A stretch of DNA of 64,000 bases from Pecten maximus. Lineage: Eukaryota. A model generated the notes under the pieces. The model was not told the DNA's origin and did no database searches. It saw only the letters and a program-made list of their open reading frames with translations. The stretch covers positions 34,038,001-34,102,000 of the forward strand of contig NC_047019.1 of NCBI RefSeq assembly GCF_902652985.1. The letters run 5' to 3'. Shown here one piece after another: positions 20-52,000 of the stretch. Within the stretch, counting starts at the first letter, position 1. Every line of letters begins with the position of its first letter. Both the position numbers and the translations under genes were made by a program.

Positions 20-910
20 CCATATACACGATGTGGTTTTATTTATGATACTGTTTATGTATGTGATATATTATACACGATGTTGTGTTTATAATGTTGT
101 TTATGTAGATACAGAGATGTGTCATTGCTGGGTCTGTGAGATATTACACACGATGTTGTTGTGTTTATGATGTTGTTTATGTAGATACAGAGGTATGTCA
201 TTGCTGGGTCTGTGAGATATTATACACGATGTTGTTGTGTTTATGATACTGTTTGTGTAGACACAGGGGTATGTCATTGCTGGGTCTGTGAGATATTATA
301 CACGATGTTGTTGTGTTTATGATGTTGTTTATGTAGACACAGGGGTATGTCATTGCTGGGTCTGTGAGATACTAAACACGATGTTGTTGTGCTTATGATG
401 TTGTTTATGTAGACACAGAGGTATGTCATTGCTGGGTCTGTGAGATATTACACACGATGTTGTTGTGTTTATGATGTTGTTTATGTAGATACAGAGGTGT
501 GTCATTGCTAGGTATGTGAGATATTACACACGATGTTGTGTTTATAATGTTGTTTATGTAGACACAGAGGTGTGTCATTGCTGGGTCTGTGAGATATTAC
601 ACACGATGTTGTTGTGTTTATGATGTTGTTTATGTAGACACAGGGGTGTGTCATTGCTGGGTCTGTGAGATATTACACACGATGTTGTGTTTATGATGTT
701 GTTTATGTAGACACAGGGGTACGTCATTGCTGGGTCTGTGAGATATTAAACACGATGTTGTTTTGTTTATGATGCTGTTTATGTAGACACAGAGGTATGT
801 CATTGCTGGGTCTGTGAGATATTACACACGATGTTGTTGTGTTTATGATGTTGTTTATGTAGACACAGAAGTATGGCATTGCTAGGTCTGTGAGATATCA
901 CACACGGTGT
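20..910. repeat. Minisatellite, 76-bp unit (73-bp variants), ~11-12 copies
   Basis: gtcattgctgggtctgtgagatatt recurs at 121, 197, 273 etc. (76-bp period). Confidence 0.95.
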
Positions 911-2299
911 CGTATTAAAAACAATGGAATTGTATGCCAATTGTTTTATTTTATTACTTTAATATTTATTGATATATTGAGAATGGATATTGTAAGAAGC
1001 TATAAATACATTCAATACGTAGATACCTTGTGTTACAGCGAAATGTAAACCGTGATATAACATTTCTCTCTGATAGGTAATTTAAGTCATAATACATAAC
1101 ATATTCCTTGTCTATTTCTACGCTAGTAACGATATATTTGTTATTTAATATGTCTATACCGGTAGAAAGGATAATATAAGTATAGACCTGGCTTTAATGA
1201 GTTCCGGATAAAAGCCATTCACATTGACTTAATGATACTTCTCCTCATCGCTAACCCCGGTAATTAACAGTCGCTACCCGCACACAAAGGAAATCAACAC
1301 AGGTCTAACGTCAACCTGTACTCGCGTGCAATCAAGGGCTGAAATCGATAGTATATATATCTTGATACGTGACTTTTTGACCTGTCACCTAACACTTAAT
1401 CCTGTATATTTGGTTTTAAATTACTCCCAGATCTAGATGACATATATTTATCCACGTCTAACTAAACGATCGCAGTATAATTTCACGTGACATGTAATCA
1501 GGTGATTAACACATCATAGGCAATAGAAGCATGTACTATGTGGTTAGCAAATTATATATATGTAACTGTAATACACAGTGATGAGTGGGTAACGCAACAT
1601 TAAATCACAAACTTATAATAATATAAACACGGGAAATCCACATAATTTACCAATAAGGAAGGTTCTTACTCTTCTAAGTACTTATATTTCCCTATATTGA
1701 TACTAAGATACTAAAACGCTATACTATTTATCATATTAAGCTGACTATGCTATATATAATTAAGGTGTGTGCACGAGGGTATGGTTTAGTGGTGAACGAC
1801 AACAGCATGACACGTATTTGAACCAATAACGTCGTGCATCATCCTTTTTATTTGTTCTAGTGCTGTCTAGCTTTTAGCCAATTTTACAATGCAAAGTGTG
1901 GCAGGTAAATACTGCATTGCAACGGTACTCTCTTTAATTAGTAAAGAAAATAGTTTATAGGATTAAAACATGTGTATAACATGCTTGAATTATGTTTTTT
2001 CTTACACGGTTGGGAGAGGTTCTCATATGTCAATGTACCTCGTACGAGAATTTTATAAGAGAACATCCAAGTGTGAAATAGAAAATGTTATAGGTTTTAG
2101 AAGACATCAAAATTGAAAAAAAAATACGGTGAAGAATTTAGAAATGTATCTTTTAGCCGATCCCAAATAATCACCGTGCGATAAATAATACTGTTAAAGC
2201 CTAAATAACTTTCTTTTAGTAGAAAATAAATTATCAGAAAAGACTGAGATGACTGTTCCCAATGATATAATTTTTCCAACACCTTCTTCGTACGCATGT

Positions 2300-2850: not shown

Positions 2851-4346
2851 ATAACGACAAACGGGTTCGTGGTGTATAGGGAGTAAGAAACTTCGAGTGT
2901 TGTTTATGACGTATACTTAATGAAATGCATCTGGATGAGTATTGTATTATTTATGATACTTCGAAGAGAACGATCAGTTGAAGCCTTCGCAATTGTTCCT
3001 ATATATTCAGTTGAAAACAAGATATTTTAAAACGTTATATACGGTAGTAGAAAACAATATCACGAATTTCAATCCGACATATACCTGTAATATCTGTTGC
3101 TATGGAATGGAATTATTAAGATATGTTAAATAAATGACAAACTTTTCTGTATATCAATTTGAAATGGACACAAAAGGTTAAAACCCTTTAAATTAGAAGA
3201 TTAGTCTCTCTTATGAGTTTAATTATAGATACTTCATAACACTAAACTGTTATCAAAAGACTATACAGTATTTCCATGACTCTATAATGATCCACGTTAA
3301 CAATGTTGACAGCAATAATATCAGACAGTAACTGTGATTTATGCAGCCGATTCTGTTAGGAGTTTTACGTCTAAGAAACTGCAAATGTCAAATAGAGACA
3401 CTTTCATTGGATGATAGATTCACTAATTTGTTATAGTGCCTCATTCTGAACTGATCTGGACACGATGACAATCTGTTTACATAGATGATTGGTCCATCAT
3501 TTATGATGATGGGATTACTCATTTACTATAGTGCTATCAACCTGAAATGATCGGGATAGGATGACGATCTGTTTACATTGGATGGTGGGTTCTCTCATGT
3601 GTTATAGTGCTATCACCAAATCATTAGATATATGTTTACAAAATATGTTATTTATGTAGAAGTATTATGATACATATATATAATCGTATAATTATATTGG
3701 AAGTCAGTCACCTACATTGAAATAACATTTAGACATCGAAATATGATACCGGGCAAATTCCAGACCAAAGTTTATAATTACAAGTATTCTAGTTGTTTCC
3801 AAGATAATATCACAGCGCAGTTAGATTAATGAATTATTTGATTTGAGTCAAATTTGGAAAACATAGAGCTTTTAATTTCTACTGTGTCGTATCATCGATA
3901 AAACGATAATACCTTTTCCTCATAGATGCCGGCTTAATTTGAATTAATTCTGTCGCTTGTTCCCGTGCAATTTTTCAAACTTTTTTTTCTGTCACGACAA
4001 ATCCCCCCTGCACCATTTGCAGTTAACCAAGGGATCATATCATAATTCATTATGTTCCAAATAATTAAGGTACGGTCCATTACTTCTTCCATTTGTTCTA
4101 AAAGCATTAGTGTTATGATACATTAGTAAGCATTTCCTGAATAATTCTCACATAGATATTCAAAGTGAATATAAATTTATGTGAGTATTTTAAACTGCCA
4201 TAACAAAAGGATCAACAAAAAAGAGGACAAATATGTTTTACAGATAGGATACCAATCTTTTTGTCCGCAAACGTTCTCAGATCTTTTTTATTGACGTTAT
4301 ATTTTCATGCGTCAGAAATAATTTGAATAAAATGTATAAGTCCCAT

Positions 4347-5205
4347 AAATGTATCTCACTGATACCACACACTATAACCTCGGATGAGAGTGTTTTAAAT
4401 GTATCTCACTGATACCACACTCTATAACCTCGGATGAGAGTGTATTAAATGTATCTCACTGATACCACACTCTATAACCTCGGATGAGAGTGTATTAAAT
4501 GTATCTCACTGATACCTCACTCTATAACCTCGGATGAGAGTGTATTAAATGTATCTCACTGATACCTCACTCTATAACCTCGGATGAGAGTGTATTAAAT
4601 GTATCTCACTGATACCTCACTCTATAACCTCGGATGAGAGTGTATTAAATGTATCTCACTTGCACCACACTCTATAACCTCGGATGAGAGTGTATTAAAT
4701 GTCTCTCACTGATACCTCACTCTATAACCTCGGATGAGAGTGTATTAAATGTATCTCACTGATACCTCACTCTATAACCTCGGATGAGAGTTATAAAACG
4801 TATCTCACTAATAACTTACTCTTTAACCTCGGATGAGAGTGTATTAAATGTATCTCACTGATACCACACTCTATAACCTCGGATGAGAGTCTATTAAATG
4901 TGTCTCACTGATATAACACTCTATAACCTCGGATGAGAGTTATAAAATGTATCTCACTGATACCTCACTCTATAACCTCGGGTGAGAATGTATTAATGTA
5001 TAAATATATCTCAATGATACCACACTATAACCTCGGATGAGAGTGTATGAAATGTATCTCACTGATACCTCACTCTATAACCTCGGGTGAGAATTATAAA
5101 ACGTTTCTCACTGATACCTCACTCTATAACCTCGGGTGAGAGTTATAAAATGTATCTCACTGATAACTTACTCTATAACGTCGGTTGGGAGTGTATTAGA
5201 TGTAT
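4347..5205. repeat. Minisatellite, 50-bp unit unrelated to the previous one, ~17 copies
   Basis: aaatgtatctcactgataccacactctataacctcggatgagagtgtatt repeated at a 49-50 bp period. Confidence 0.95.
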
Positions 5206-7329
5206 CATAGTCAAAGAACTGGCACCATTCATATTTAATGAAGATGATAGGACTGATAATTTCCTTTAATCTTTGTATATCAGGAACGGCGCTTGATAAA
5301 AGTAAAATGTCTCGCACACACCTGAGCAAACTCAGAAATAGGACATGAATTCTTCATGCTTACTGTACATGTGATGTCGCCAATTTCAATCACTAATACT
5401 ATCATTTGGTACAGTAAGACTGTTGAAGAGACGTATAAGGAACAGTAAAAGACATACCTGTGGACCAATCATCAAAGCATCACCATCCATCATTCAACCA
5501 GTACGGCACCATTAATGACGAGATTTGATTGACAGTGATGCTTGCGTGGGGTTTGTCTTTTTTACATCTCCCAGGTGTGACCTACATAATCGGGTATGCA
5601 CCCTTTCACCTGTGAGAGATGTCGCCTGATAGTCGCCTATAAATCCTTGTTCAATACCAGAAACGTCAAGCGTCTGGTACCGGTGGTGACTGCCAACCAA
5701 ACTGTGGGTTTTTTCAACGTCACTGATATGCAAAGCCAAAGCCAGTGTTAGCATAAGTCGCGGTCGCTACTAAAAGTCCACAGGGAACTGACTTTAACCA
5801 TTACATTGATGGTATAAGTAAACATATGTGTCGCCGTTATGCCTAGTGAAGTCACTGCCTCTATCTCGTCACGAGTTTATAACAGCTCTCTCCCTGACCG
5901 CTAACATCGTCTAACCTGTATGTATAGTACTATAAGTATACACATCTGAAGAGGATAGGTAAACACATCGATTTTTTGTCTTTGTTTTGCATTGGTTAGT
6001 CCTTCGTTATCCCCACATGATATGATTAACACACCAAACATCCAGTGTATCCTGGTAATTAGGCAACAAAGACCATGCAGCACGGAACACCACAGGACAG
6101 GTTAATCCAGGTATTACCTGTCGACGGTACGGGTAGGCTTCACCTGTTACCCTACAATCATATATCCTAGCCTATCAAGCTACGTAAATGTTTCATTCTC
6201 ACCTGGCAGCGCTGACTAGGATTTCCTTCTAAGCTTTTCAGCACGAATTCTCTAAACGTCATACACTGCACCACAATGGTATACCCATATGATTAAATAT
6301 TGATAAGTTATTTCTGGTATCCCAGGGCACAAAGAAACAACGGCTTTATCTGTTCATCTATAAATTGAAGGAGAAAAAATTATAGTCGTGAAGTTATGAT
6401 TAATGTATTAGATATGTACTAATAAACGTTTCGTTTTGACAAAAATAACTTATGTATTCTCAATGGAGTATGTTTTGTAAAGTAAAACTACGAAATCAGT
6501 CTAAAATGGACGCTTTGTTTATAAGATATTCATAGTTGTAAGTCCATCATAAATTAACAATGTAAAGTAAGTCTGTTATTTCCGGTATCCTAGGACACAC
6601 AGAAAATAAATCGGGTGCATAATACTAGTACTACTTGACCATGGTCAGCCATTTGTACAGGAGGAATATTGTAGTGTTATAAGATGTAACAGACATTTGA
6701 TAAGTCTTTTAAAGCTTAGGTCATTCGAAGATTTCAGATAGTATTCGGAGTGTTTCCAGTTTTATTATTTTCTATATATGTATCGGGCACTGCGAATTTT
6801 AACATTTTAATATATACATGAATCTGAGAGCTCTGGCGACTGCCAACTAAACTAATCACTTGACATCTCCAGTAACGTCAAGGTCCCACTGGGGATCAGC
6901 GGCGATGTGGAGACTCACTGATACTTTGGGGATGCCGTATAATGAAAATATTTCGCGGAAGTTCAAGGAAGCATTTCCTTGCTGTTTTAACGACAAAATG
7001 TCGGGAACATATCGGGAAAACCAATTGATTTAAGCAACCTCTCGATGGCCCACATGGCTCGCGACGCTCCCGGAGATTCCTTTTTGTACCTGTTCCAAAG
7101 CCTTTCCTAGACTCATCAATTTCCATCGGGAGTACATCACTGAGGCAACTGTGGGGCTGAGCAATAAAGCAGGGATATGTTCTGATGCGTATTGATTAAT
7201 TAAATGTTCAACGAAAGCTTACTTGTATTGCCATAATCAAAAATCGAGGAATAACATGTTGAAATACCAAAAAGTACCATATATTTGTCAGTAACCGCTG
7301 AAAAAAAATTAACAACTTTATCGCCCAAA

Positions 7330-10300
7330 ATAAACAATGCTATTGATAAGCATAAACAATGTTTTCAACAAACGTTAACAATGCTATCACCACACACAAA
7401 CAATGTTATCACCAAGCATAACATTGTTATGAACAAACATAAATAAAGTTATCATCAAAGATAAACAATGTTCTCACCAAGAATAAACAATGTTGTCAAC
7501 TAACATAAACAATGGTGTCACCAAACAAAAACAATGTTATCACCAAACACAAACAATGTTGTCACCAAACATAAACAATGTTATCACCAAACACACACAA
7601 TGTTATCACCAAACACAAACAATGTTATCACCAAACACAAACAATGTTATCACCAAACATAAAAAATATCATCACCAAACATAAACAATGTTGTCACCAA
7701 ACATAAACAATGTTATCACCAAACATAAACAATGTTATCACCAAACATAAACAATGTTATCACCAAACATAAACAATGTTCTCACCAAGCACAAACAATG
7801 TTATCACCAAACATAAACAATGTTGTCACCAAACATAAACAATGTTGTCACCAAACACACACAATGTCATCACCAAACATAAACAATGTTGTCACCAAAC
7901 ATAAACAATGTTATCACCAAACACACACAATGTTGTCACCAAACACACACAATGTTATCACCAAGCACAAACAATGTTCTCACCAAACACAAACAATGTT
8001 ATCACCAAACATAAACAATGTTGTTACCACACATAAACAATGTTATCACCAAACATAAACAATGTTATCACCAAACATAAACAATGTTATCACCAAACAT
8101 AAACAATGTTGTCACCAAACACACACAATGTTATCACCAAGCACAAACAATGTTCTCACCAAACACAAACAATGTTATCACCAAACATAAACAATGTTGT
8201 TACCACACATAAACAATGTTATCACCAAACATAAACAATGTTATCACCAAACATAAACAATGTTATCACCAAACACACACAATGTTATCACCAAACACAC
8301 ACAATGTTATCACCAAACACAAACAATGTTATCACCAAACACACACAATGTTATCACCAAACACACACAATGTTATCACCAAACATAAACAATGTTATCA
8401 CCAAACATAAACAATGTTGTCACCAAACACAAACAATGTTATCACCAAACACACACAATGTTATCACCAAACACACACAATGTTATCACCAAACATAAAC
8501 AATGTTATCACCAAACACACACAATGTTATCACCAAACACAAACAATGTTATCACCAAACACACACAATGTTATCACCAAACACACACAATGTTATCACC
8601 AAACATAAACAATGTTATCACCAAACATAAACAATGTTGTCACCAAACACAAACAATGTTATCACCAAACACACACAATGTTATCACCAAACACACACAA
8701 TGTAATCACCAAACATAAACAATGTTATCACCAAACACAAACAATGTTATCACCAAACACAAACAATGTCATCACCAAACATAAACAATGTTATCACCAA
8801 ACATAAACAATGTTATCACCAAACACAAACAATGTTATCACCAAACACACACAATAGTATCACCAAACATAAACAATGTTATCACCAAACATAAACAATG
8901 TTATCACCAAACACAAACAATGTTATCACCAAACACACACAATAGTATCACCAAACATAAACAATGTTATCACCAAACACACACAATGTTATCACCAAAC
9001 ATAAACAATGTTATCACCAAACACACACAATGTTATCACCAAACACAAACAATGTTATCACCAAACACAAACAATGTTATCACCAAACATAAACAATATC
9101 ATCACCAAACACACACAATGTTATCACCAAACACAAACAATGTTGTCACCAAATATAAACAATGGTGTCACCAAACATAAACAATGTTATCACCAAACAC
9201 ACACAATGTTGTCACCAAATATAAACAATGGTGTCACCAAAGATAAACAATGGTGTCACCAAACACAAACAATGTTGTCACCAAATATAAACAATGGTGT
9301 CACCAAACATAAACAATGTTGTCACCAAACACACACAATGTTATCACCAAACACACACAATGTTATCACCAAACACAAACAATGTTATCACCAAACACAA
9401 ACAATGTTATCACCAAACATAAACAATGTTATCACCAAACACAAACAATGTTATCACCAAACATAAACAATGTTATCACCAAACACACACAATTTTATCA
9501 CCAAACACACACAATGTTATCACCAAACACAAACAATGTTATCACCAAACACACACAATGTTATCACCAAACAGTAAACATAAACAATGTTATCACCAAA
9601 CACACACAATGTTATCACCAAACATAAACAATGTTATCACCAAACATAAACAATGTTATCACCAAACATAAACAATGTTATCACCAAACACAAACAATGT
9701 TATCACCAAGCACAAACAATGTTATCACCAAACATAAACAATGTTATCACCAAACACAAACAATGTTATCACCAAACACAAACAATGTTATCACCAAACA
9801 CAAACAATGTTATCACCAAACACAAACAATGTTATCACCAAACACAAACAATGTTATCACCAAACACACACAATGTTATCACCAAACACAAACAATGTTA
9901 TCACCAAACATAAACAATGTTATCACCAAACACAAACAATGTTATCACCAAACATAAACAATGTTATCACCAAACACACACAATGTTATCACCAAACACA
10001 CACAATGTTATCACCAAACACACACAATGTTATCACCAAACACACACAATGTTATCACCAAACACAAACAATGTTGTCACCAAACACACACAATGTTATC
10101 ACCAAACACAAACAATGTTATCACCAAACACAAACAATGTTATCACCAAACACACACAATGTTATCACCAAACACACACAATGTTATCACCAAACACACA
10201 CAATGTTATCACCAAACACACACAATGTTATCACCAAACATAAACAATGGTGTCACCAAACATAAACAATGTTATCACCAAACACACACAATGTTATCAC

Positions 10301-11830
10301 CAAACACAAACAATGTTATCACCAAACACAAACAATGTGATCACCAAACACACACAATGTTATCACCAAACACAAACAATGTTATCACCAAACACACACA
10401 ATGTTATCACCAAACACACACAATGTTATCACCAAACATAAACAATGTTATCACCAAACATAAACAATGTTATCACCAAACACAAACAATGTTATCACCA
10501 AACACAAACAATGTTATCACCAAACACACACAATGTTATCACCAAACATAAACAATGTTATCACCAAACATAAACAATGTTATCACCAAACACACACAAT
10601 GTTATCACCAAACACAAACAATGTTATCACCAAACATAAACAATGTTATCACCAAACACAAACAATGTTGTCACCAAACACACACAATGTTATCACCAAA
10701 CACACACAATGTTATCACCAAACATAAACAATGTTATCACCAAACACACACAATGTTATCACCAAACACAAACAATGTTATCACCAAACATAAACAATGT
10801 TATCACCAAACATAAACAATGTTATCACCAAACACAAACAATGTTATCACCAAGCACAAACAATGTTATCACCAAACATAAACAATGTTATCACCAAACA
10901 TAAACAATGTTATCACCAAACATAAACAATGTTATCACCAAACACAAACAATGTTATCACCAAGCACAAACAATGTTATCACCAAACATAAACAATGTTA
11001 TCACCAAGCACAAACAATGTTATCACCAAACATAAATAAAGTTATCATCAAAGATAAACAATGTTATCACCAAACACAAACAATGTTATCACCAAACACA
11101 AACAATGTTATCACCAAACATAAATAAAGTTATCACCAAACATAAACAATGTTATCACCAAGCACAAACAATGTTCTCACCAAGAATAAACAATGTTATC
11201 ACCAAACATAAACAATGTTATCACCAAACATAAACAATGTTATCACCAAACATAAACAATGTTATCACCAAACATAAACAATGTTATCACCAAACATAAA
11301 TAAAGTGATCACCAAACATAAACAATGTTATCACCAAGCATAAACAATGTTATCACCAAACACACACAATGTTATCACCAAACACACACAATGTTATCAC
11401 CAAACATAAACAATGTTCTCACCAAGAATAAACAATGTTATCACCAAACATAAACAATGTTATCACCCAAACACAAACAATGTTATCACCAAACACAAAC
11501 AATGTTATCACCAAACACAAACAATGTTATCACCAAACACAAACAATGTTATCACCAAACACAAACAATGTTATCACCAAACACAAACAATGTTATCACC
11601 AAACACACACAATGTTATCACCAAACACAAACAATGTTATCACCAAACACAAACAATGTTATCACCAAACACAAACAATGTTATCACCAAACACAAACAA
11701 TGTTATCACCAAACACAAACAATGTTATCACCAAACACAAACAATGTTATCACCAAACATAAACAATGTTGTCACCAAACATAAACAATGTTGTCACCAA
11801 ACATAAACAATGTTATCACCAAACATAAAA
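7330..11830. repeat. Large 22-bp satellite array, ~200 copies
   Basis: Unit aaacaatgttatcaccaaacat with cat-aaac / cac-aaac / cac-acac variants; degenerate at the left edge. Confidence 0.98.
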
Positions 11831-14439
11831 AATATATTTTTTATAAATATAACAACAAAGGTAAACATACCCACCAACCATGTATATGGTGTTGATATAT
11901 ACGGATGAGAGCCCGTCGGTAAGTTGTATCGTGTCCTAATCATATGCCGTTTATTTGGTCGTAAGAAAGATAATATTTATATCGAGATAAATACAACCGT
12001 TTTAACTTTACATAATACCAGATTTATGTAAAACTTTATGAATGCACACTGGATTATTTGATGTATTATATTGCTGATATTTTAAGAGAAATTACACGAA
12101 GAATCAGGGCAATGCAATAATCAATAAAACTATTTAAAAAAACATCGTACGCTTCTCTAATCATACGGTCATAATCTCCAATTATCATACATATTTCATA
12201 TTTTAAAAGTGTTAAAATAAAGGGTTCGATATTCAGATATAATGACCTACCTGTATAGCGATCCCCACACTTTAAGTATGTTGTTCTAGCGCAGGTTAAT
12301 CAAAATGTCACCATTTGATTCACAATATGAACGTAATTTTATCGACAAGATTTTCAAGGCTTATGTACAAGATAGCAGCGTAATGTTGTAATGTTCTGTA
12401 TGTAATTACAGCGGTTTCCGTGATGGATGCCCAACGTGTTATAAACTCAGTCGATACGGAGTAGCGTGACGTCATTGTGTTTCTCACTCTCTCACACGGC
12501 GAGTCATTAATGTATGACGCCAAGATCACTGTGCTCGGTGTGTTACGCTTCACATATATTGATAATGAACTCTGGCTTAACCATTCATAAATATTCATAT
12601 CTTTAATTAGACACAATGCTATACTTTTCAAGGTCATATCATTTAACGGTATTAACGAAATATTAAATCCAGGTACACAATTAATTGCTCAGATGTATGA
12701 CGCCTCGATATAAGAAATTTATTTATTTTATGATGCACATATAATTAATTTTTACATTGTGATTATTGGAACACTCGAATTAAGTATTGATAGGGTTTAA
12801 AAAACAATAGTCTTTTGTATTATATGATATCTTTTTGATCCCCAACCTACAGAGGTGTATAACAATCCCATAAACTTTCTGGATTCAATATCATGCGAAC
12901 ATGTTTATTTGTTGTTATTTATTGCTATTTATGGGAGAATTCAACACAAAACACAGGAAAGAAATGAACAGAATTATGTGTCATATGTACTGTGAAATTA
13001 CATTTTAAAATCATATGTAAAAAGTGTCATAGATTCTTGAATTCAAATACATAAACAAAATCATTCTTACTTTAACTATCAGCAAGGAAAATGTAATGAA
13101 AAAACGAAAGGGCAATAACTCTTACATAAAGTGTTGAACCAAAACGCCTTTCATGAAAACGCGATCTGCATATTATTATTATTCCTTCCAACTTTCAGAG
13201 ATCTTTTCAAAACTTAAAGAAATCTCTTGACTAACAAAAGTTTACATCAGATGGACGAACTGACAAAGTCTAGTCATATTGACACTTTAAAACAATGTTA
13301 TTCATTGATCGACGCATGCACAGACGAACGAATGCATAAAGTAATTTGTAGCCCCTTTCAGAAGTAAGGTTATTATAATTCCATGGGTTGTAGTCGAATC
13401 AAACGGGTTAGTGATGGTTAGTGATGGAAGGGAGATAATTCGCGTAATTGTCTTCCAAACATAATTATAGGTGGCATTATTCGTGTATTGAGTATTAAAC
13501 TTTGTCAGATTTCGTCCATCTGTTGAAAAAAATCTCTGAAACTCACAATAGTTGGTCACCAGAGATGTGACCATTCTATTACTGTTCCCTGGCTCTGACT
13601 TTCTCTCTGTCTGTCTCCCGTTTGTGGTAACGCCATGTTTGCCAGTACATTTCACAGGTACATCTTTTTTATTTGATTAAAGTTTCATCTTTTGTCATTA
13701 CATTAAAACAGTGCTATCACCTGAAAAATTACGTCGAAACACGTATAAGTCACGGATTCCACTCTCAATTCGCACTGTTACATCGGTTATAAATAGGAAT
13801 ATTACTTGTCTGCGCTGTGTGACTCTATAGACCAATCTGTACTACGTCATAAAGACAAGACATCAGTTTGCCAGCCCAGCCCGTATAGCCAAATGGCGTG
13901 TCATACTGTTATATCACTATTTAGTGGGTTGGCATTATCTAAATGGCTTATTTTTGTAAATATCGTCCTCACCTGACCATAGAAATGATAAAAAACGTAA
14001 GTCAATATGACCACTTCTCTTTTCTTTTACCTGCCCATTTCAGTTTAACTGTCCTCAAGGATAAAGTTATATCGGACCAAAACCTTTGGAAATAAACTTT
14101 AAAAACTTCAAAAGTTACAAACTGATTGAATAGTTCACATCTCCAAGTGATAGAAGCACTCTACGAAGCTATGGCAACACACAATTTATAATTTCAAACC
14201 AAATATCTATGGTGGCATATTTCTGCCATCGATTTGATTTATTCATTCACTTTATTTTGAATTTATTTTTCCCATTTCGAAACTCCAAATAATATATCGC
14301 CATCATAGTATCATTAACACTAGGTAAACCAAATATTAGGGCATATATGTATTATCATTTACATAAGATTAAATGTTACCAAAAAAAAGAAAACAAAGCT
14401 CTAGAAAGAAATTAAACGATAATGATATGTGCTGCATTG

Positions 14440-17267: not shown

Positions 17268-17878
17268 AATATCACATCTATCCCTTTCCGAGTAAATAAA
17301 CCTGTTATTTCGAAAGTCGCGTTCAAACAGATTGTTTATGAAAGTTGACTGCATATCACAAATAATACTAAGATACTTAGCCTTGATAATTATTGTTGGT
17401 ATATTTTACTTAGTAGTGATATACATGGGTGTAGCTTGGTAAAAACTAATATTTATTCAAGGAGCAATGTTAAGTTGGCTTGCCATAAATATTCCACATA
17501 ATATGTTAGTAACTTGACTATATGTACACAAACTGATAGCTTCATTTGATTGCTGTAATAAAAAACCCTACTACCCTAATTACATTTACCACTTAAGATA
17601 ATAGTCATTTTTCATGACGAAGAATTAAATCCTGCCCCCTGTGCGTTGTCTAAACCACATAACTTAATGTAAGATCAGTACGCAACAAATTGGAAATAAT
17701 AGAAGCTGCATTATTCGGAAATTACATGGAAACACATCTCAACCATATCATACTTCATGAAGGTGTCAGTAACTTAAAATTTTCATGATTTTTCATCTCT
17801 TGCAATTTCCTCCCTGATTAGGAGCTATCATTACCTCACACTTATCACTTTTAATCTAGATAATTTGATTATTACTAG

Positions 17879-18407
17879 CGCTGCGGGTAGGATGTAAGAA
17901 ATTGTACCTGTTGCCCCCATTGCATGCTCATAAGAGACGACTAAATTTGGGATCTTATCTTTTTCTCTTCTTTCTTAGCAACTTCTTTCTTCCTTATGTC
18001 TCACTTGACATTGCCTCATATTTGGCCTTTAGTTGAGCATTCGCCCCTGTGAGGAAGGCTTTGGGTTCTGTCCCCTTGCCGAGACATACCAGAGTCTTTA
18101 ACAATGGTAGTTGCTGCTCATGTTTAGCGCTCAGCATATAAGGAGTGGGACGACTGGTTCGCCCGTTGTCGATATAATGTGACCGGGTGGGATGTCATGT
18201 TGGGTTCACGGCAGTTGCTTCAGTGAGGTAGTACTATAAATCGGCAAAAAATTCGGCCTATCACATGAAGACTTAACACAGACATACCGCAGCCTCCTAA
18301 AACACAAATACGCACTGACCACACGCATGCATATCGCACGCACGGGAGGCCGTCCTTAAATGACATCAGCTGTCGGTAGGACGTTAAACAAATAAAACCT
18401 AACCAAA
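17879..18407 (+). mobile_element. Composite tRNA-SINE (Meta-domain-like) with 5' extension, copy 1
   Basis: Collinear with 23431-23968; degenerate tRNA head (tggcctttagttgagc...gggttctgtcccc); core gactggttcgcccgttgtc..tataatgtgaccggg; tail gtccttaaatgac..taggacgttaaac; imperfect TSD tgattattactag/tggttattactgg. Confidence 0.85.
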
Positions 18408-19569
18408 TGGTTATTACTGGACAAGATGTGATAGATCAGCTTGATAACATTCATGACAAGAAACTTCTTGGTCCATACGAAATGATACCGAAAAGTTTTA
18501 AAGGACTCCAAATTTTCCATCGTCTTGGACATTAGCAAATTACCAATTAATCATGTTGCAAACTATAGACAAATGCTAATCACATCTTGCTTCAGTAAAA
18601 TGAGAACATGTACACTCACATGAAAAACGAAAGTAACCGCAATAAACTTGTAGCATCTACATATCATTTTGTCGCTTTAATATGACCAGTAATGTTTATA
18701 TATCGTTGCAGTTCTCCACTTCAGCATTTGCGCATTCGGGCTATCATAGCTGTTCCTCTTTTTAGAGTCACGAAGCTTTTTATTGGTTGGCAAACAGGGT
18801 ATATAAATACAAGTGTTGAAACCCTCGATAATTCACAGGAACAGGTACACATATCCAGTCACTGTGCACACAGCATGTTCGTGGCAATGGTAATCTACGA
18901 CCACGTTAGACAGGTACGTAAATACGTCCATATACGAGTTCAACCAGGTGTAGTCTTCCCCGATTGTAGTCCTACACCGATTGTAGTCATACAAGGCCGT
19001 ACTTAGGTTGATAGTTTCAATAATAAGGAGATTTCTCCCACAATCAATAATATATTGAGCGTCAGCCTGACAAAGATTGAAGCTGAAAAAAAGATCGAAG
19101 CTAAAATTCAATTACATCTGACGTTTTAAATTGGTACCGCGCTCTTAATATTCGACCTATAGCATATATTTGTTATTGGGATCCTTAATGATATAGCTTA
19201 GGAAAGTCAGCTCGTCACTTACATTCACTACGGTATACATGGATTTGTAATGGTAATACTTCAATAAAACACTGTATCGGTGAAATGCTAACCGCCGTCT
19301 AACTGATATGATATCTCCCTCGGTCTATTTACTGGACACGGAGATATATATACAACAACTGCACCTCAAAAAAGGACTTTTTTGTTGCATGCTCTGGTAT
19401 AATATGAGATTTTCAATCAGGGAATCTGCTTCGGGCAAGGAAACTAAAAAATTAAAGCGACGAATGCAAATATACTATACCGATCGCAGCATTTGGTACG
19501 GCATCTGTTTCTCTTCTACTTCATCTATATCAGTACATAGAATACATCCAGGTATTTCTTTACGTCCCG

Positions 19570-21367: not shown

Positions 21368-23430
21368 CAATTTAGCTCCAAGTGACTGATATAGTCGCAA
21401 AAGCAGTTCGCCGTCTGCACCCAAATATGTATGAAATCTTAAAAATGATGTAGTTTCCTTCTGTGGAGCTTTTCAGATGTATTGGTAGTCTTGCGGTTTG
21501 AGAGGCAACATCGATTGAAGAGATCGTCTGAACAGATTAAAAATGTATTGTTTTTACACCTTGAGATAAGTGAATGGTTTTCTATTCTCATATAACAAAA
21601 AGTTACCGTGTCGATTACATATGCCTTAAAACATCGGCCGATAACTTCGATCTTGATTCACAACATAACCATGTAACTACCATTTCTATATAGTAACAGC
21701 CCTGCTATACATGCAATGTTCATGTGTCCAATTTGACTACAAGAACTTGTAACAAATGACGACTGTCCAATTTATCCTCAAAGAAACAGAACGAAAACAA
21801 TGAAGGAATACGTCTCCAAACTATCTTCTAAAGCTTCGTCAGAAAATATTTGAAGACTCGATTAAATCACCTAGGCGCACGCAGGCACTGTTGATTAAAC
21901 TTAACAAATCAAATATATTGTGACAACACATAGTTTTAGTATAAATCCGGTACTAATCTATTTTTTTAATACACTACATTTTCTTTAATTGACTGAATGA
22001 TTCTGTTAATCATATTACTTATGGAGTCATTATATCGTGAGTTGTCATGAAATTGTCGTATCGAGGCACATGTTACCGATACAGAAATTAGAATCCTAGT
22101 TGTCTCTTGCAATTTATAAGAATTATTCAGGTGTTTGAACGGTGAAACTAAGTCGTCTGATTTAGGGTGTTAGGCAAAAGTCTCTTTCCTACCCATATTT
22201 TAATGTGGCGCACTACCACATGTTATTTTCAAGATAAGTCATGATACAGAGTCCTGACCACTTATTAGCGAATTATTACTGGCCTCAGAACTCACCAATA
22301 TGTTTGTAAATTACTTCTACTAACCATTACCGATATGAGAAGTAAAGAACTCGCTTACAGACGTATCTTGCCAATGCAGCTTTTCCAGATCAAATACATT
22401 AAAGAAACATTGCCTTGTATTTCTCTAAAACGCGTTTTGGGCTTACATAATAAAACATATTTTTAATATCGTGAACCTGAATGGTGGGAGGCGCGAAAAT
22501 GACTACTTTTCTGAAGCAAGTAAGGCTTAAATCTGAGATAATTAAAGAACAATGAGAACAGAGTTCATAACCTTTCTAACGGGGCAGACACTCACCTTAA
22601 AGCCAGTTAAAAGTGAGTTAGTGGCAAAAGTGAATTAATAATATAAAAACTCGTTATTTTTCTCAATTATGCAATATAGGTAGTCGGTATAATTCGTACA
22701 CATACGTTCAGCGCAGGGCATTCGAAAGTGTCCAGCCGTCTAGTCAAGTCAGTAAATATTCTTAATATCCTAGTCGTCAGTGTGTCGGAGAAAGTAAAAG
22801 GACAGTGTGCCTGAGAAATATTAAACAATATATTTTTTTAGATAGTGAAATTATGGATTGAGCATTGGTTTATACAATGTGTAAACCTGACTACCTGTGT
22901 TATGCTTGTTTTTTCACCATCAGAATTTGAACGATAGAGACGGAGACGGAAATCTTAATTACAAAAATACAAATCGCAGGGTTCAGTTTTAACTTTATTT
23001 ATTTTCCTAGTTCGTGAACATGATATGACACTGATATAAAAATGTTTTCTTAATTTGATTATTCACGACAGCATTGTAAACAATTTTTAATACTTAAAGA
23101 AATTAATTAATGTCTGAAGAAAATATGAAGGCGTAAAGGAAACATATACAGCTCGAGGTAGAGGGAAAGGAGAAATGAGAAACTAAGTGAAGGAAGCGAT
23201 TTGTAGACATATGTCGGTTTGATATTCCACCAACTATTGACGCGCCGACATTTTATAACAATGACAGGAATGATTATTAACAAAAAAATAATGTATATAT
23301 AATTACACACAATATATTTGATACAATAATTATAATATATAACCACATTTTGCCAAATTAGGGTGGGCGATATTTTATAATATTCTATTAGTTAATTATA
23401 TACTCTTTAATTATATACTTTGACCTCCAT

Positions 23431-23968
23431 TGCCCTGCAGGTAGGGCGTAATAATTGTACCTGCTGCCCCCATTGCATGATCCTAAAAGACGACTAAATT
23501 TGGGATCTTATCTTTTCTCTTCGTTCTGAACAACTTTCTCCTTCCTAATGTCTCCCTTGACAATGCCACACGTTTGGCCTTTAGTTGAGCGCTCGCCCCT
23601 GTGAGGAAGGCTTTGGGTTCAGTCCCCTGGCCGAGACATACCAGATTCTTTAAAAATGGTAGTTTATTTTCCGGCTTAGCGCTCAGCATATTAGGAGTGG
23701 GACGACTGGTTGGCCCGTTGTCAGTATAATGTGACCGGTTGGGGTGTGCTGCTGGGTGTCTTCGGCAGTATGCTTCAGTGAGGTACAATGTAGCACTTTA
23801 AATCGGCAAAAGTTCCGGCCTATCACAAGGACTTCACACGAACATATCGCAGCCTCCCAAAACACACATACGCACTCACTACACGCATGCATGTCGCACG
23901 CACGGGAGGCCGTCCTTGAATGACCTTAGCTGTTAATAGGACGTTTAACAAAATAAACCAAACCAAAA
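23431..23968 (+). mobile_element. Composite tRNA-SINE (Meta-domain-like) with 5' extension, copy 2
   Basis: 11-bp TSD ttgacctccat (23420-23430 and 23969-23979); empty site at ~51902 in X2; (aaacc)n tail. Confidence 0.9.
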
Positions 23969-24850
23969 TTGACCTCCATGTGACGATGTTTTATACAATC
24001 AGATTAAAGCATATTTTGATAAAGCGAAAAAGTGTGGATACATAGTTCGTGACTTGAGATATACATAAACATTTAAATAACTTTTAAATCACAGTACCAA
24101 ATATCGAATGATCATATGATGTGTGTCATATCTAGGCCCATATACCTGACACTACATCATGATCTGGCCATTGGTAGGTAGTGTCACACTGGTTATCTTC
24201 TAGCTAAAACTCCGGACTTAATATTATAATACATGTACGTCTCTGTTGGATGGTAAAATTGACTGAATAATGAAATAAAGTACAATTTAATATAGATTTT
24301 CAAATAATATTTCCGAGACTGACCTTTTTATTTTTATTTTTTATTATTATTATTATTACAAGCTAACCGGTAATAAGTATTTATATATTAAAAAAAAAAA
24401 CTACTGTATCTATCACCTGTGTTCATTGCAGTATAACACAATCTGTGTAAGATAGATTTTTATTCGGGGGAAAAAGTCTTTCTGCGATAAAGCACTGGAC
24501 AAAGTCTGAGTGCATAGAATCAAACAAAAAAGTGATGTGCATGATTTTTCTAAAACTTTTTTCTATTTATAGTAACATTATCTTTGACCTTTGACTTTCA
24601 AGCCTGAAGCTACATGTAATATTCTAAGCAAATACTTTCTTAAGTAGCAGTGATCTTGACCATCGGGCCCTGATAAGTTATCCTTGAAAGCAGGCACAAG
24701 GTAGAACTTGATAACTTCTAATAAGCATAATCAGCTCAGCTGAATTCATAATATATTGTACTTCAACTGATTTTCAATTTATAGAAATAGTGACATTGAC
24801 CATTGACCTGCAGGCCTGACAGAGTAATGAAGGTATTGTGCAGCAATCAA

Positions 24851-30990: not shown

Positions 30991-31410
30991 ACATCACTAC
31001 CACGTCAGCAAATTACAATGCCCGGGTGTAAAGCTCCAGAGCGTCTTCGTTGCTCATTAGTATATTCATTCAAAATATACATTGTTGACCAGTGTTGCAA
31101 CTTGTACATATCGATGACGTCATTTTAAGTAATTTAATTTAAAACGATCGATTGCATTCGTTTGTGAACGTCTGTTCGTTTCTATATGCCGAATTCTAAA
31201 CTGAAAACACTAAACTGTTCCAATACCGAAGCAAGAACATTAACATTTGCTCTATAAAACGACCCTAGAGCACCCCATTACCCTAAATAAGTTCTCTACA
31301 GCGTGTAGGCGCTTGTACGTGAATAACGAAAAGAGCTGTACATTCCAGCTGTCAAGCATCGTCAAATTTTCATTTCGTCAATTGATGCCAGTTATAATGC
31401 CGGTGAATTT

Positions 31411-31575
31411 GATTTATTTCGTTTAACGTCCTAAAGACAGCCCGGGTCATTTAAGGACATGTGATGTTTAGAAGCAGGAGTATCCGGGGTACCCGGAGAA
31501 AAATCAACGGCCTACGGTAAGGACCAGGCAACTGCCAAACGTGGGTTTCGAACCGGCAACCAAGGGGTGGACTGT
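31411..31575 (-). mobile_element. Degenerate, 5'-truncated V-domain SINE
   Basis: Reverse complement matches 35361-35579 (gtttaacgtcct..ggtcatttaaggac..gtacccggagaaaa..ggcctacggt..ggcaactgcc). Confidence 0.8.
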
Positions 31576-35355: not shown

Positions 35356-35579
35356 AAGAAGGGGCCGCGGTGGCCGAGTGGTTAAGGTGTCCCGACACTT
35401 TAACACTAGCCCTCCACCTCAGGGTTGCGAGTTCGAAACCTACGTGGGGCAGTTGCCAGGTACTGACCGTAGGCCGGTGTTTTTTCTCCGGGTACTCCGG
35501 CTTTCCTCCGCCTCCAAAACCTGGCACGTCCTTAAATGACCTTGGCTGTTGATAGGACGTTAAACAAAAACAAACCAAA
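35356..35579 (+). mobile_element. Full-length V-domain tRNA-SINE
   Basis: A box tggccgagtgg, B box gttcgaaac, V-like core ttctccgggtactccggctttcctcc; 12-bp TSD gtctacccatca; empty site at ~58428. Confidence 0.92.
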
Positions 35580-46597: not shown

Positions 46598-46821
46598 GGG
46601 GCCGCGGTGGCCGAGTAGTTAAGGTGTCCCGACACATTATCACTAGCCCTCCACCTCTGGGTTGCGAGTTCGAAACCTACGTGGGGCAGTTGCCAGGTAC
46701 TGACCGTAGGCCGGTGGTTTTTCTCCGGGTACTCCGGCTTTCCTCCACCTCCAAACCTGGCACGTCCTTAAATGACCCTGGCTGTTAATAGGACGTTAAA
46801 CAAAAACAAAACAAAACAAAA
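46598..46821 (+). mobile_element. Full-length V-domain tRNA-SINE
   Basis: Near-identical to 35361-35579; 11-bp TSD ccaattcacca; (caaaa)n tail. Confidence 0.92.
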
Positions 46822-49090: not shown

Positions 49091-52000
49091 TATATATATC
49101 AGGTTATCTCTGTGGTGTAGGGAATTTCAAGACGGCTGATTTTTTATTTTTTTTTTTTTTTATTTTATTGTTGGTGTTGAAATCATGTGGGCGATGGATC
49201 TATATACACATTAAGAGGGTTTACAAACAGTTCAGATAAAACATGAAACACAAAAAACAAATGATAGATTGGATGTTGTCGAAAAGTGATCATGGTGTAT
49301 TGAAAATATTCTTCTTGATTATGCAGTAATAAATTAATGTTTAGGATCGTACCCGTCTACGAAGGCATGTCAGGTATTTAGCTGTGAGAGAAAAACCAAA
49401 AGTCGATATTCAGATTACTCAGGAATAGGGCTATCCGGATACCAAATATTGGAATCAACTTTCCGTTTTGGAACGAAAACATGTTCATATATAGGATTGA
49501 GTACTAGGTCGAATGAAAGATTGGTGATACCAAATTTAGATTAAGATTTGAACTGTAGTAACAATTTCGCTCGAAGCTTTTCGCCGTCTGCATCCAAATA
49601 TGTATGAAATCTTAAAAATGATGTAGTTTCTTTATGTGGCGCTTTTCAGATTTATTGCCGCACAGCAGTCTTGCGGTTTGAGAGGCAAAATTGATTGAAG
49701 AGATCGTCTGAACAGATAAAAAAGGTCCTGATTTTTAATTTCATTATGAGATAAGTGAATGGTTTTCTATTATCATATAACAAAAAATTACCGTGACGAT
49801 TACATATGCCTTAAAACATCCGCCGATTACTTCGATCTTGATTCACAACATAACCATGTAACTACTATTTCTAGAAAGTAACATCACTGCTTTATATACC
49901 TGCAATGTTCATGTGACCAATTTCGCTACAAGAACGTGTAACAAATGACGACTGTCCAATTGATCATTTTTGTAATTTAAAGATTTGTATGGCAACAACG
50001 CATCGCCTAAAAGAAACAGAACGTTAGCAATGAAGGAATACGTCTCCAAACTGTCTTCGAAAACATCGTCCGAAAATCAATCAAATCACCTGAGTGCAAG
50101 CAGGCACTGTTGATGAAACCTAACAAATCAAATATATTGTGACAACACATAGTTTTAGTATATATCCGGTACTTAATTATTTCGTTCAATATCAACTCGA
50201 TAATTCTGTTCATCATATTACTTGTGGATACTTTATATCGTGAGTCGTCATGAAATTGTCGTATTGAAGCGCATGTTAGCGATACAGAAATTAGTATCCT
50301 AGTTGTCTCTTGCAATTGATAAAGAACTGAAGCGCATGTTAGCGATACAGAAATTAGTATCCTAGTTGTCTCTTGCAATTGATAAAGAACTATTTAGGTG
50401 TTTAATTGTTGCTAACTACGTCGTCTGATTTAGGGTGTTAGGCAAGAGTCTCTTTCCTATCACATATACTAATGTGGCGCACTACCACACGAAATTTTCA
50501 AGATGAGTCGGGATACAGAGTCCTGACCACTTATTAGCGAATTATTGCCGGCCTCAGAACTCACCAATATGTTTGCATACTTCTACTAACCAATACCGAT
50601 ACGAGAAGTAAAGAACTCGCTTACAGACGTATCTTGCCAATGCAGTTTATTTTCAGATCAAATACATTAAAGAGACATTACCTTGTAATTCTCTAAAACG
50701 CGTTTTGGGAATACCTACTAAAACATATTATTAACATCATGAACCTGAATGGTCGGAGGCGCCAAAATGACTACTTTTCTGAAACAAGTAAGGCTTCAAT
50801 CTGAGATCATTAAAGAACAATGAGAACAGAGTTCATAACCTTTCTAACGGGGCGGACACTCACTTAAAGCCAGTTAAAAGTGAGTTAGTGGCAGAAGTGA
50901 TATCAGGAAGCAGCTAAATAGAATTGTTTAGGAATTAATAATATAAAAACTCGGATTTTTTCAGTTATGCTTATATAGGCAGTCAATATAATTCGTACGC
51001 CTACATTCAACGCAGGGCATTCGAAAGTGTCCAGCCGTCTAGTGAAGTCAGTAGATATTTTTAATACCCTAGTCGTCAATGTCTCGGAGAAAGTGAGAGG
51101 ACAGTGTGGCTGAGGGATACTAAACACTCTGAATTAGATTTTGGTAGATAATGAAACTGTGTATTGAACATTGGTTTATATAATGTGTAAACCCTACTAC
51201 CTGTCTTATGTTGTTGTTTTTTTCACCATTATAATTTGAACGAAAGAATTATAGCTGCGTTTCTCTACTCCGTAACACTAGTAATACAGTATACCGATGA
51301 CCGATTTCCGTCTCGATAGATGGAGATATAAAAAAAATGTTAATATGATATACTTGAAAATCTTTATATGACTATATAAAACAATAAAACTATTTGTGGC
51401 CTCGACGGATACCAATAAGGAGGGGGAATCTGGAATTTCGGAGGTGGAAATCTTAATTACAAAAATACAAATCGCAGGGTTCAGTTTAAACTTTATTTAT
51501 TTTCCTAGTTCATGAACATGATATGACACTGATATAAAAATGTTTTCTTAATTTGATTATTCAGGACAGCATTGTAAACAATTCTTAATACTTAAAGAAA
51601 TTAATTTATGTCTGAAGAAAATATGAAGGCGTAAAGGAAACATGTACAGCTCGAGGTAGAGGGAAAGGAGAAATGAGAAACTAAGTGAAGGAAGTGATTT
51701 GTAGATATATGTCGGTTTGATATTCCACCAACTCTTGACGCGCCGACATTTTATAACAATAGTAGGGATGGTTAATAACAAAAAATAATTCATATCTAAT
51801 TACACACAATATATATAATATAATAATTATAATGTATAACCACATTTTGCCAAATTAGGATGGGCGATATTCTATACTATTCTATTAGTTAATTATATGC
51901 TTTGTCCTCCATGTGACGATGTATACATAACCATTTGGATAACTATCATAGTACCATATATCGAATCGTGATTATTTGAATGTTCATAAAGGATAATATG

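What the first reader, a model, noticed from the sequence alone, without database searches (positions are those of the whole stretch)
23431..23570. SINE with a structured, tandem-pseudoknot-like leader upstream of its tRNA head
Seen: two independent insertions (17879-18407 and 23431-23968) start at almost the same nucleotide, ~135 nt upstream of a degenerate tRNA head. The TSDs, and the empty site at ~51902, prove the leader is part of the mobile unit. In copy 2, stem gccct/agggc has a 6-nt loop gcaggt that pairs with downstream acctgc; copy 1 keeps the gcgggta/tacctgt pairing via G-U. A second, weaker module (tc.taaga..cgac-taaatttggga-tctta) has loop taaga complementary to tctta. A pyrimidine tract follows. 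Established: Pol III SINEs normally begin at the tRNA head, and some non-LTR elements (R2, RTE) define their 5' ends with self-cleaving ribozymes. Inference: the leader is a captured LINE 5' RNA structure (ribozyme or exonuclease block) that lets a SINE with a decayed Pol III promoter be processed from host transcripts. I could not fit it to a canonical HDV, hammerhead, twister or pistol consensus.
Basis: partly seen in the sequence, partly recalled or inferred. Interest (0 to 1): 0.7.

Follow-up and report, generated by a model that had tools for sequence, protein, structure and literature searches.

The report
Virus-shared RNA knot capping scallop SINE
A known scallop jumping element begins with a predicted knotted RNA structure that also starts many other jumping elements and sits in the tails of several RNA viruses, and it likely sets where the element's RNA begins by blocking the cell's RNA-chewing enzyme.

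Summary
The observation largely holds. Both copies, their target-site duplications and the empty site are real. The SINE and its leader were published in 2016 (pectinoid MESC SINE with a LINE-derived head, PMC4758252), where the leader was read as a promoter.

What appears new is the structure and spread of the ~75-nt leader. Across 28 families the 7-bp pseudoknot stem covaries strongly (z≈10; 7 of 7 pairs change on both sides). A second domain follows: a covarying stem carrying a near-invariant hairpin.

The module heads other short retroelements and an intact Nimb-like LINE. Related Nimb families carry an HDV-like fold at the same position. It also lies in sense, just after the last ORF, in six RNA viruses (tandem in two), and between genes of one DNA virus. 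Rfam and ten literature searches gave no description of the fold.

Best reading (0.5): an exonuclease-resistant RNA that sets the 5' end of promoter-less retroelement RNA. Rivals: a new ribozyme class (0.25), a translation-factor binder (0.15), a DNA promoter (0.07). No activity was tested.

The parts
23420..23430 (.). 5' target-site duplication of copy 2 (11 bp)
   Evidence: sequence; single copy at the empty site 51902-51912
23431..23968 (+). SINE copy 2 (pectinoid MESC/Meta SINE with LINE-derived head)
   Evidence: leader matches the Chlamys sequences in the supplement of PMC4758252
23432..23464 (+). Domain 1, predicted H-type pseudoknot: S1 23432-23435/23444-23447, unpaired U 23436, S2 23437-23443/23458-23464, A-rich linker 23448-23457
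   Evidence: covariation
23469..23504 (+). Domain 2: covarying stem S3 23469-23472/23501-23504, internal loop, hairpin S4 23479-23483/23491-23494 with a 7-nt loop 23484-23490 and UAA 23495-23497. This copy has a broken closing pair and two loop changes.
   Evidence: S3 covariation; S4 is invariant so its pairing is inferred; model R1 scores this copy 51.7 bits
23505..23566 (+). CT-rich spacer, not shared with other carriers of the leader
   Evidence: described in PMC4758252 section 9; rows
23567..23637 (+). Decayed tRNA-derived head (A-box remnant about 23575-23587, B-box remnant about 23616-23626; limits approximate)
   Evidence: read by eye against recalled box consensus; no ARAGORN call
23640..23740 (+). 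MESC/Meta central domain (limits approximate)
   Evidence: by position in the published architecture; not aligned to a published consensus here
23915..23968 (+). Nimb-LINE-like 3' tail with AATAAA (23952-23957) and short terminal repeats
   Evidence: 75% identity over 53 nt to the 3' ends of Nimb-like LINEs at 8 of 12 fetched G000 loci
23969..23979 (.). 3' target-site duplication of copy 2
17877..18407 (+). SINE copy 1 (older; S1 broken, S2 kept through G-U pairs); TSDs 17866-17876 and 18408-18418
   Evidence: model R1 35.5 bits, E 2e-6
51902..51912 (.). Empty site in a paralogous copy of the repeat that copy 2 inserted into

Best explanation
The ~75-nt leader is a conserved two-domain element, a predicted H-type pseudoknot followed by a near-invariant hairpin, found at the 5' ends of this SINE, other short retroelements and a Nimb-like LINE and in RNA-virus 3' UTRs, and it likely works as an exonuclease-resistant RNA (xrRNA) that sets the element's 5' end. 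Inferred route: a copy lying in a host Pol II transcript (an excised intron, or read-through past a poly(A) site) is degraded 5' to 3' by Xrn2 or Xrn1 until the enzyme stalls at the base of stem S1. The AATAAA tail would give the 3' end. A Nimb LINE reverse transcriptase, whose 3' tail the SINE shares, would copy the RNA into new sites with 9-15-bp TSDs. No promoter is then needed, which fits the decayed Pol III boxes. In viruses the same fold would leave a 3' subgenomic RNA. Shown: boundaries, covariation, distribution and tail similarity. Inferred: the 3D fold, nuclease resistance, the transcript route and the LINE partner.
For: (1) Covariation. Across 28 families S2 pairs at 6.14 of 7 positions in cognate pairs versus 4.37 in non-cognate pairs (z 9.9); S1 z 5.7; S3 z 4.1. 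In a 31-row MAFFT alignment, 7 of 7 S2 pairs change on both sides; covariation score 0.417 versus 0.145±0.015 shuffled and at most 0.136 when slid. (2) RNA-level role. The module lies in sense in six distinct RNA viruses: L211, L213/L216, L215, L217, L589, L598 (RdRP or capsid Pfam hits). It starts about 6-125 nt after the last long ORF's stop, and its core ends 14-119 nt from the contig end. It is tandem in 2 of 6. The 3' UTR position and tandem arrays are typical of xrRNAs (PMC8374639). (3) 5' boundary. In 4 of 4 metagenome families with at least four copies, similarity ends within about 1 nt of the base of S1. In the SINE the modal end is 2 nt upstream: of 33 TSD-bearing copies, the bases between TSD and stem were CT in 15, TT in 5, T in 5, other in 8. 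Class 3 xrRNAs halt Xrn1 at the base of P1 (PMC12397905). Only 2 of 33 junctions start with an extra G, so there is no sign of the cap-derived G (recalled property of capped LINE RNA). (4) No Pol III class. Of 30 tail-selected copies, 15 start at positions 1-3, 4 at 8-27 and 11 at scattered sites from 128 to 469, with no cluster at the tRNA head. (5) Module swap. Two G000 Nimb families (ORF2 50-51% identical to the leader-bearing LINE L642) begin instead with HDV-like folds at their first nucleotide, then share a 22-29-nt UTR motif that in L642 directly follows the leader. The leader therefore occupies the slot of a 5'-processing element. (6) Reads from a related species show head-to-tail duplication of exactly the S1-to-S3 unit (joint 1575 to 1503 on L003).
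Against: No nuclease, cleavage or structure assay exists. RNA-seq showed no pile-up of molecule starts, although those random-primed libraries from another species are insensitive and the control had only 16 reads. Ribozymes do occur in UTRs of linear RNA viruses, including toti- and tombus-like ones (PMC13725137), so viral presence does not exclude self-cleavage. The module swap with HDV-like folds fits a ribozyme equally well. The fold lacks the defining details of all described xrRNA classes (see Membership tests), and a plain H-type pseudoknot need not encircle its 5' end. The core hairpin was the search key, so its invariance is largely built in. Families are related, so the permutation p-values overstate significance. 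The linker G is T in a large SINE subfamily, including window copy 2. One copy lies upstream of an ORF in a DNA virus (L597), which also fits a translation role.
Confidence: 0.5

Rival explanations
1. The module is a self-cleaving ribozyme of an undescribed class that cuts just upstream of S1 and frees the retroelement RNA from host transcripts, as HDV-like and twister ribozymes do for R2, RTE, Ingi and Perere-3.
For: It occupies the same slot as HDV-like folds in related Nimb families. 5' ends are sharp. A near-invariant 16-17-nt core could be catalytic. Ribozymes are known at LINE 5' ends (PMC5786205; PMC6765202) and in linear RNA virus UTRs (PMC13725137).
Against: The viral ribozymes described there precede ORFs or flank small circles. 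These copies follow the last long ORF, where a cut would remove the genome's 3' end. No nucleotide is conserved at the presumed cut site, and 0-4 nt precede S1 depending on the family. It fails the HDV descriptor (0 fits in 4 of 4 leaders) and has no Rfam match.
Confidence: 0.25
2. The module binds a host translation or stability factor, like a plant-virus 3' cap-independent translation enhancer. It would help uncapped viral and LINE RNA be translated and park SINE RNA at ribosomes, while 5' ends are set some other way.
For: It sits near the start of viral 3' UTRs and about 150 nt upstream of a 1,056-codon open frame in a DNA virus. It lies about 400 nt upstream of the ORF1 frame in the LINE. 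A fixed 17-nt core resembles such enhancers (recalled).
Against: It does not explain why unrelated non-coding elements start at the base of S1, including one of roughly 115 nt with no room for a separate promoter (L168; no TSD found for it).
Confidence: 0.15
3. The leader is an internal Pol II promoter acting as DNA (the published 'LP-SINE' proposal), and the pairing is secondary.
For: It is 5'-terminal, and the tail has a poly(A) signal. Proposed in PMC4758252 section 10. The trypanosome Pr77 element is both promoter and ribozyme, so a dual role is possible.
Against: Compensatory changes in three stems. Sense-strand copies in RNA viruses that have no DNA stage. The published proposal was untested.
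Confidence: 0.07

Closest known systems
Pectinoid MESC (Meta) SINE with LINE-derived head, and LP-SINEs (Matetovici et al. 2016, PMC4758252)
   Same: Same element: about 520 bp, 68-bp LINE-like head, CT-rich spacer, tRNA remnant, MESC core, TSDs. The Chlamys leader sequences match. The paper notes the same head in Nimb-17_LMi, I-3_DR and RTE-9_CPB.
   Different: The paper proposes a promoter and reports no structure for the head ('pseudoknot' 0 and 'exonuclease' 0 occurrences in the main text). The two sections read do not mention viral copies.
Class 3 xrRNA of Tombusviridae/Solemoviridae and ST9a (PMC12397905, PMC8374639)
   Same: A 5' stem-loop whose loop pairs with a 3' strand across a purine-rich linker; about 50-75 nt; viral 3' UTR; boundary at the base of the first stem.
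   Different: No P1/P2 stack with a J1/2 bulge, no T-loop inside the apical loop, no AGY motif. It has an extra 3' hairpin domain and occurs in animal retroelements. Resistance is untested.
HDV-like ribozymes at LINE 5' ends (R2, RTE, L1Tc/Ingi) and twister variants of Perere-3
   Same: Short structured module at the exact 5' end of non-LTR elements, swapped between families, presumably freeing the element from host transcripts.
   Different: Different strand order: sequential domains rather than a nested double pseudoknot. The descriptor fails and catalysis is unshown.
Coremin (xrRNA-C) motif (PMC10520033)
   Same: Short, strongly conserved sequence in RNA-virus UTRs, including tombus-like and noda-like viruses.
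   Different: Different sequence and layout: hairpin with a YGAD loop, spacer, second hairpin.

Membership tests
Pectinoid MESC/Meta SINE | LINE-derived ~68-bp head matching the published sequences | tested here: met
   Supplement rows of Chlamys copies match the leader
Pectinoid MESC/Meta SINE | CT-rich spacer, tRNA remnant, length about 520 bp, TSDs, terminal short repeats | tested here: met
Pectinoid MESC/Meta SINE | MESC central domain sequence | not tested
   Assigned by position only; not aligned to the published domain
Canonical Pol III tRNA-SINE | Element starts at a tRNA head with intact A and B boxes | tested here: not met
   The head lies about 135 nt inside, the boxes are degenerate by eye, and starts do not cluster there; no tRNA call
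HDV-like ribozyme | Nested double pseudoknot P1/P2/P3/P1.1 with a catalytic C in J4/2 | tested here: not met
   My descriptor fits 0 of 4 leaders but 4 of 4 Nimb 5' ends; 15 of 100 shuffles fit, 3 of 100 with P1.1
Any Rfam 15 family (hammerhead, twister, pistol, hatchet and others held there) | Covariance-model match | tested here: not met
   0 hits at gathering score in the window; no hit on the module at E up to 10 in the window stretch or in 10 other loci. Rfam also missed the HDV-like Nimb ends, so this test is insensitive.
Self-cleaving ribozyme (any class) | Site-specific self-cleavage | not testable with these tools
   Needs an in vitro assay
Class 3 xrRNA | Apical loop of the 5' stem-loop pairs with a 3' strand | tested here: met
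   S2 covariation
Class 3 xrRNA | T-loop (L2B) inside the apical loop, J1/2 bulge, AGY motif in the linker | tested here: not met
   The apical loop is only one U plus S2; the linker is mostly AGAAU. A U..A 7-nt loop closed by G-C in domain 2 could be a T-loop (inferred, untested).
Class 3 xrRNA | 5' end halts at the base of the first stem | tested here: inconclusive
   Genomic copies start 0-4 nt from the base of S1; RNA ends were not observed
xrRNA (any class) | Ring encircling the 5' end; resistance to Xrn1 | not testable with these tools
   No RNA 3D tool or assay available
Class 1/2 flavivirus xrRNA | Three-way junction with two pseudoknots | tested here: not met
   No three-way junction in the covariation model
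Coremin xrRNA | First hairpin with a YGAD or YGNNAD loop, spacer and second hairpin | tested here: not met
   Compared by eye

The most novel reading that the evidence does not exclude
A new structural class of exonuclease-resistant RNA encoded in animal genomes, exchanged between RNA viruses and retrotransposons, and used by LINEs of several clades and thousands of SINE copies in place of a promoter or ribozyme to mature their 5' ends. If it self-cleaves instead (a further 0.25), it is an unrecognised ribozyme class.
Probability: 0.5. Interest if true: 0.9.

Novelty: new variant of a known kind. Interest (0 to 1): 0.75.

Why it matters
As of the 2021 review, xrRNAs had been characterised only in viruses, and cellular ones were an open question (PMC8374639). 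How promoter-less LP-SINEs and many LINEs obtain a precise 5' end is also open. This 75-nt module with dozens of natural variants makes both questions testable in a few in vitro assays. Any outcome (nuclease block, new ribozyme or factor binder) would define a new structured RNA family shared by retroelements and viruses. The SINE itself is ordinary and already published.

Tried and rejected
Second pseudoknot (taaga/tctta): rejected, full pairing in 2 of 28 families.

HDV fit: rejected. Twister, pistol, hairpin and hammerhead fits were tried only by eye from recalled consensus and were not found.

Rfam: nothing on the module. Single-sequence folding z-scores were uninformative.

Variation in hairpin S4: loose viral scans meant to find it returned mostly chance matches. 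Every true hit kept S4 unchanged, so S4 pairing has no covariation support.

Viral pattern hits without the upstream pseudoknot (L212, L214, L599, L600, L631, L634, L635, L640, L675, L676) were treated as chance.

RNA-seq: no start pile-ups for the SINE. The intended control on an HDV-capped Nimb had 16 reads, so the test is inconclusive.

Own-genome LINEs: no leader at the 5' end of any of 12 G000 LINE loci fetched; the model hits there are SINE copies. The donor LINE was not found in this genome.

TSD search around 8 metagenome elements found one 8-bp candidate. No TSD was found for the LINE L642.

Earlier scan notes had nothing on this sequence. Ruminski et al. 2011 was not held. Dfam and Repbase could not be searched, so an entry there may already note the shared head.

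Full report
Observation. The window lies in a 918-Mb animal genome, inferred to be a scallop from the SINE family. Copy 2 (23431-23968) and copy 1 (17877-18407) are TSD-flanked, about 85% identical, and start at nearly the same base. The empty site at 51902-51912 is real. The family is abundant: 581 candidates for the leader, of which 40 were scored at 94-100% identity, and 2,640 exact matches to a 46-nt tail pattern. Of 30 loci picked by the tail, 15 begin at positions 1-3, 4 at 8-27 and 11 are truncated at scattered sites, with no cluster at the tRNA head. Of 52 distinct full-length copies, 33 had a TSD of at least 9 bp; between TSD and first stem lay CT in 15, TT in 5, T in 5 and other strings in 8.

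The element is published. Matetovici et al. 2016 (PMC4758252; abstract, sections 9 and 10, term passages and a supplement search seen) describe pectinoid MESC SINEs with a 68-bp head like Nimb-17_LMi and an 88-bp CT-rich tract. They note the same head in I-3_DR, RTE-9_CPB and several 'LP-SINEs', propose a Pol II promoter without testing it, and give no structure for it. The Chlamys sequences in their supplement match this leader. MESC equals Meta (PMC4824008, one passage), and Meta SINEs are linked to Nimb LINEs (PMC11481361, passages).

Structure. With viral, genome and own-genome loci (136 in all), 59 passed two sequence anchors set without regard to pairing. I dropped 4 (L067, L117, L138 for wrong or truncated anchors; L216 as a duplicate) and grouped 55 into 28 families. 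Cognate S2 strands pair at 6.14 of 7 positions against 4.37 for non-cognate (z 9.9); S1 gives z 5.7 and S3 z 4.1. In a hand-picked 31-row MAFFT alignment all 7 S2 pairs and all 5 S3 pairs change on both sides, 2 of 4 S1 pairs do, and S4 has no such change because it was the search key. Relatedness inflates these statistics, but the slid controls (score at most 0.136 against 0.417) and the unrelated viral copies argue that S2 is real. The model is an H-type pseudoknot (S1, one U, 7-bp S2, linker ending mostly in AGAAU) followed by stem S3, an internal loop and hairpin S4 with a 7-nt loop. Reads from a related species show duplication of exactly the S1-to-S3 unit.

Distribution. The module heads many unrelated short elements with LINE-like tails. 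In the four families with at least four copies, similarity stops within about 1 nt of the base of S1. It sits about 400 nt upstream of the ORF1 frame of an intact LINE with endonuclease, RT and RNase H domains (L220/L642, likely host DNA in a bivalve symbiont assembly). A second, older family in this genome carries it too, some copies with a decayed second module. Eight scans of viral contigs gave true hits in six RNA viruses and one DNA virus. The RNA viruses are tombus-like, tetravirus-capsid and toti-like by Pfam; L211 rests on its capsid hit alone. In all six the module is in sense after the last long ORF, and in two it is tandem. The seventh hit is intergenic in a 212-kb AT-rich DNA virus contig, upstream of a long ORF.

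Partner and module swap. Eight of 12 fetched G000 LINE loci share the SINE tail at 75% over 53 nt. TSD lengths of 9-15 bp match those reported for Nimb (PMC4245944, passages). None of the 12 carries the leader. Two families instead start with folds that fit an HDV descriptor from their first nucleotide (4 of 4 tested; 15 of 100 shuffles fit, 3 with P1.1; Rfam found nothing). They then share a 22-29-nt UTR motif that follows the leader in L642. The leader thus occupies the position of a 5'-processing element.

Mechanism. Viral copies make a purely DNA-level promoter unlikely. Position after the last ORF, tandem arrays, the loop-to-3'-strand pseudoknot and ends at the base of the first stem match xrRNA behaviour (PMC8374639, parts 1-3 of 5; PMC12397905, passages and sections 21, 22, 25, 26). 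The defining details of classes 1-3 and coremin (PMC10520033, passages) are not met, so it may work like an xrRNA without belonging to a known class. A ribozyme remains open, because such ribozymes cap LINEs (PMC5786205 and PMC6765202, passages) and occur in linear RNA virus UTRs, though there mostly before ORFs (PMC13725137, abstract, section 13 and discussion). RNA-seq could not decide. I put xrRNA at 0.5, new ribozyme at 0.25, factor-binding element at 0.15 and promoter at 0.07.

Novelty. Ten literature searches, one of them for the core sequence itself (0 papers), and Rfam 15 gave no description of this fold or of its viral copies. Subscription papers, Dfam and Repbase were out of reach, and one supplementary index file of PMC4758252 was not searched. 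Verdict: a known SINE carrying an apparently undescribed structured RNA family shared with RNA viruses, with function untested; interest 0.75.

Noticed in passing
L666:1544-1670, L669:1544-1670, L665:1491-1640, L668:1476-1625 (G000): Two active Nimb-like LINE families start with HDV-like folds at their first nucleotide. Nimb is not among the six ribozyme-bearing clades listed in PMC5786205. Rfam does not detect them.
   Followed up: partly
L183-L210 (G000): A second, older short-element family with the same leader, some copies with a decayed second module; L183 looks like a third variant.
   Followed up: partly
L597:4955-5029: The module lies intergenically in a 212,482-bp AT-rich DNA virus contig with an NAD-dependent ligase (iridovirus-like by recollection), about 150 nt before a long ORF.
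   Followed up: partly
L090: The leader is followed by a frame ending in a 2A-like peptide (DVEWNPGP), recalled as typical of CR1/L2-group LINEs; this would be a third LINE clade.
   Followed up: no
L211: RNA-virus-like contig with an S-domain capsid first, then a 1,217-codon frame without a Pfam match.
   Followed up: no
window 35527-35579, 46763-46821, 31408-31458 (minus strand): Short matches to the SINE's Nimb-like tail only, probably other tail-sharing elements.
   Followed up: no
window 56-916, 2303-2850, 4345-5206, 7304-11836: Tandem arrays with periods of about 76, 50, 50 and 22 bp; the last has strong strand skew.
   Followed up: no
window 23200-23419 and 51698-51900: Paralogous copies of an unidentified AT-rich repeat that hosts copy 2.
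   Followed up: no
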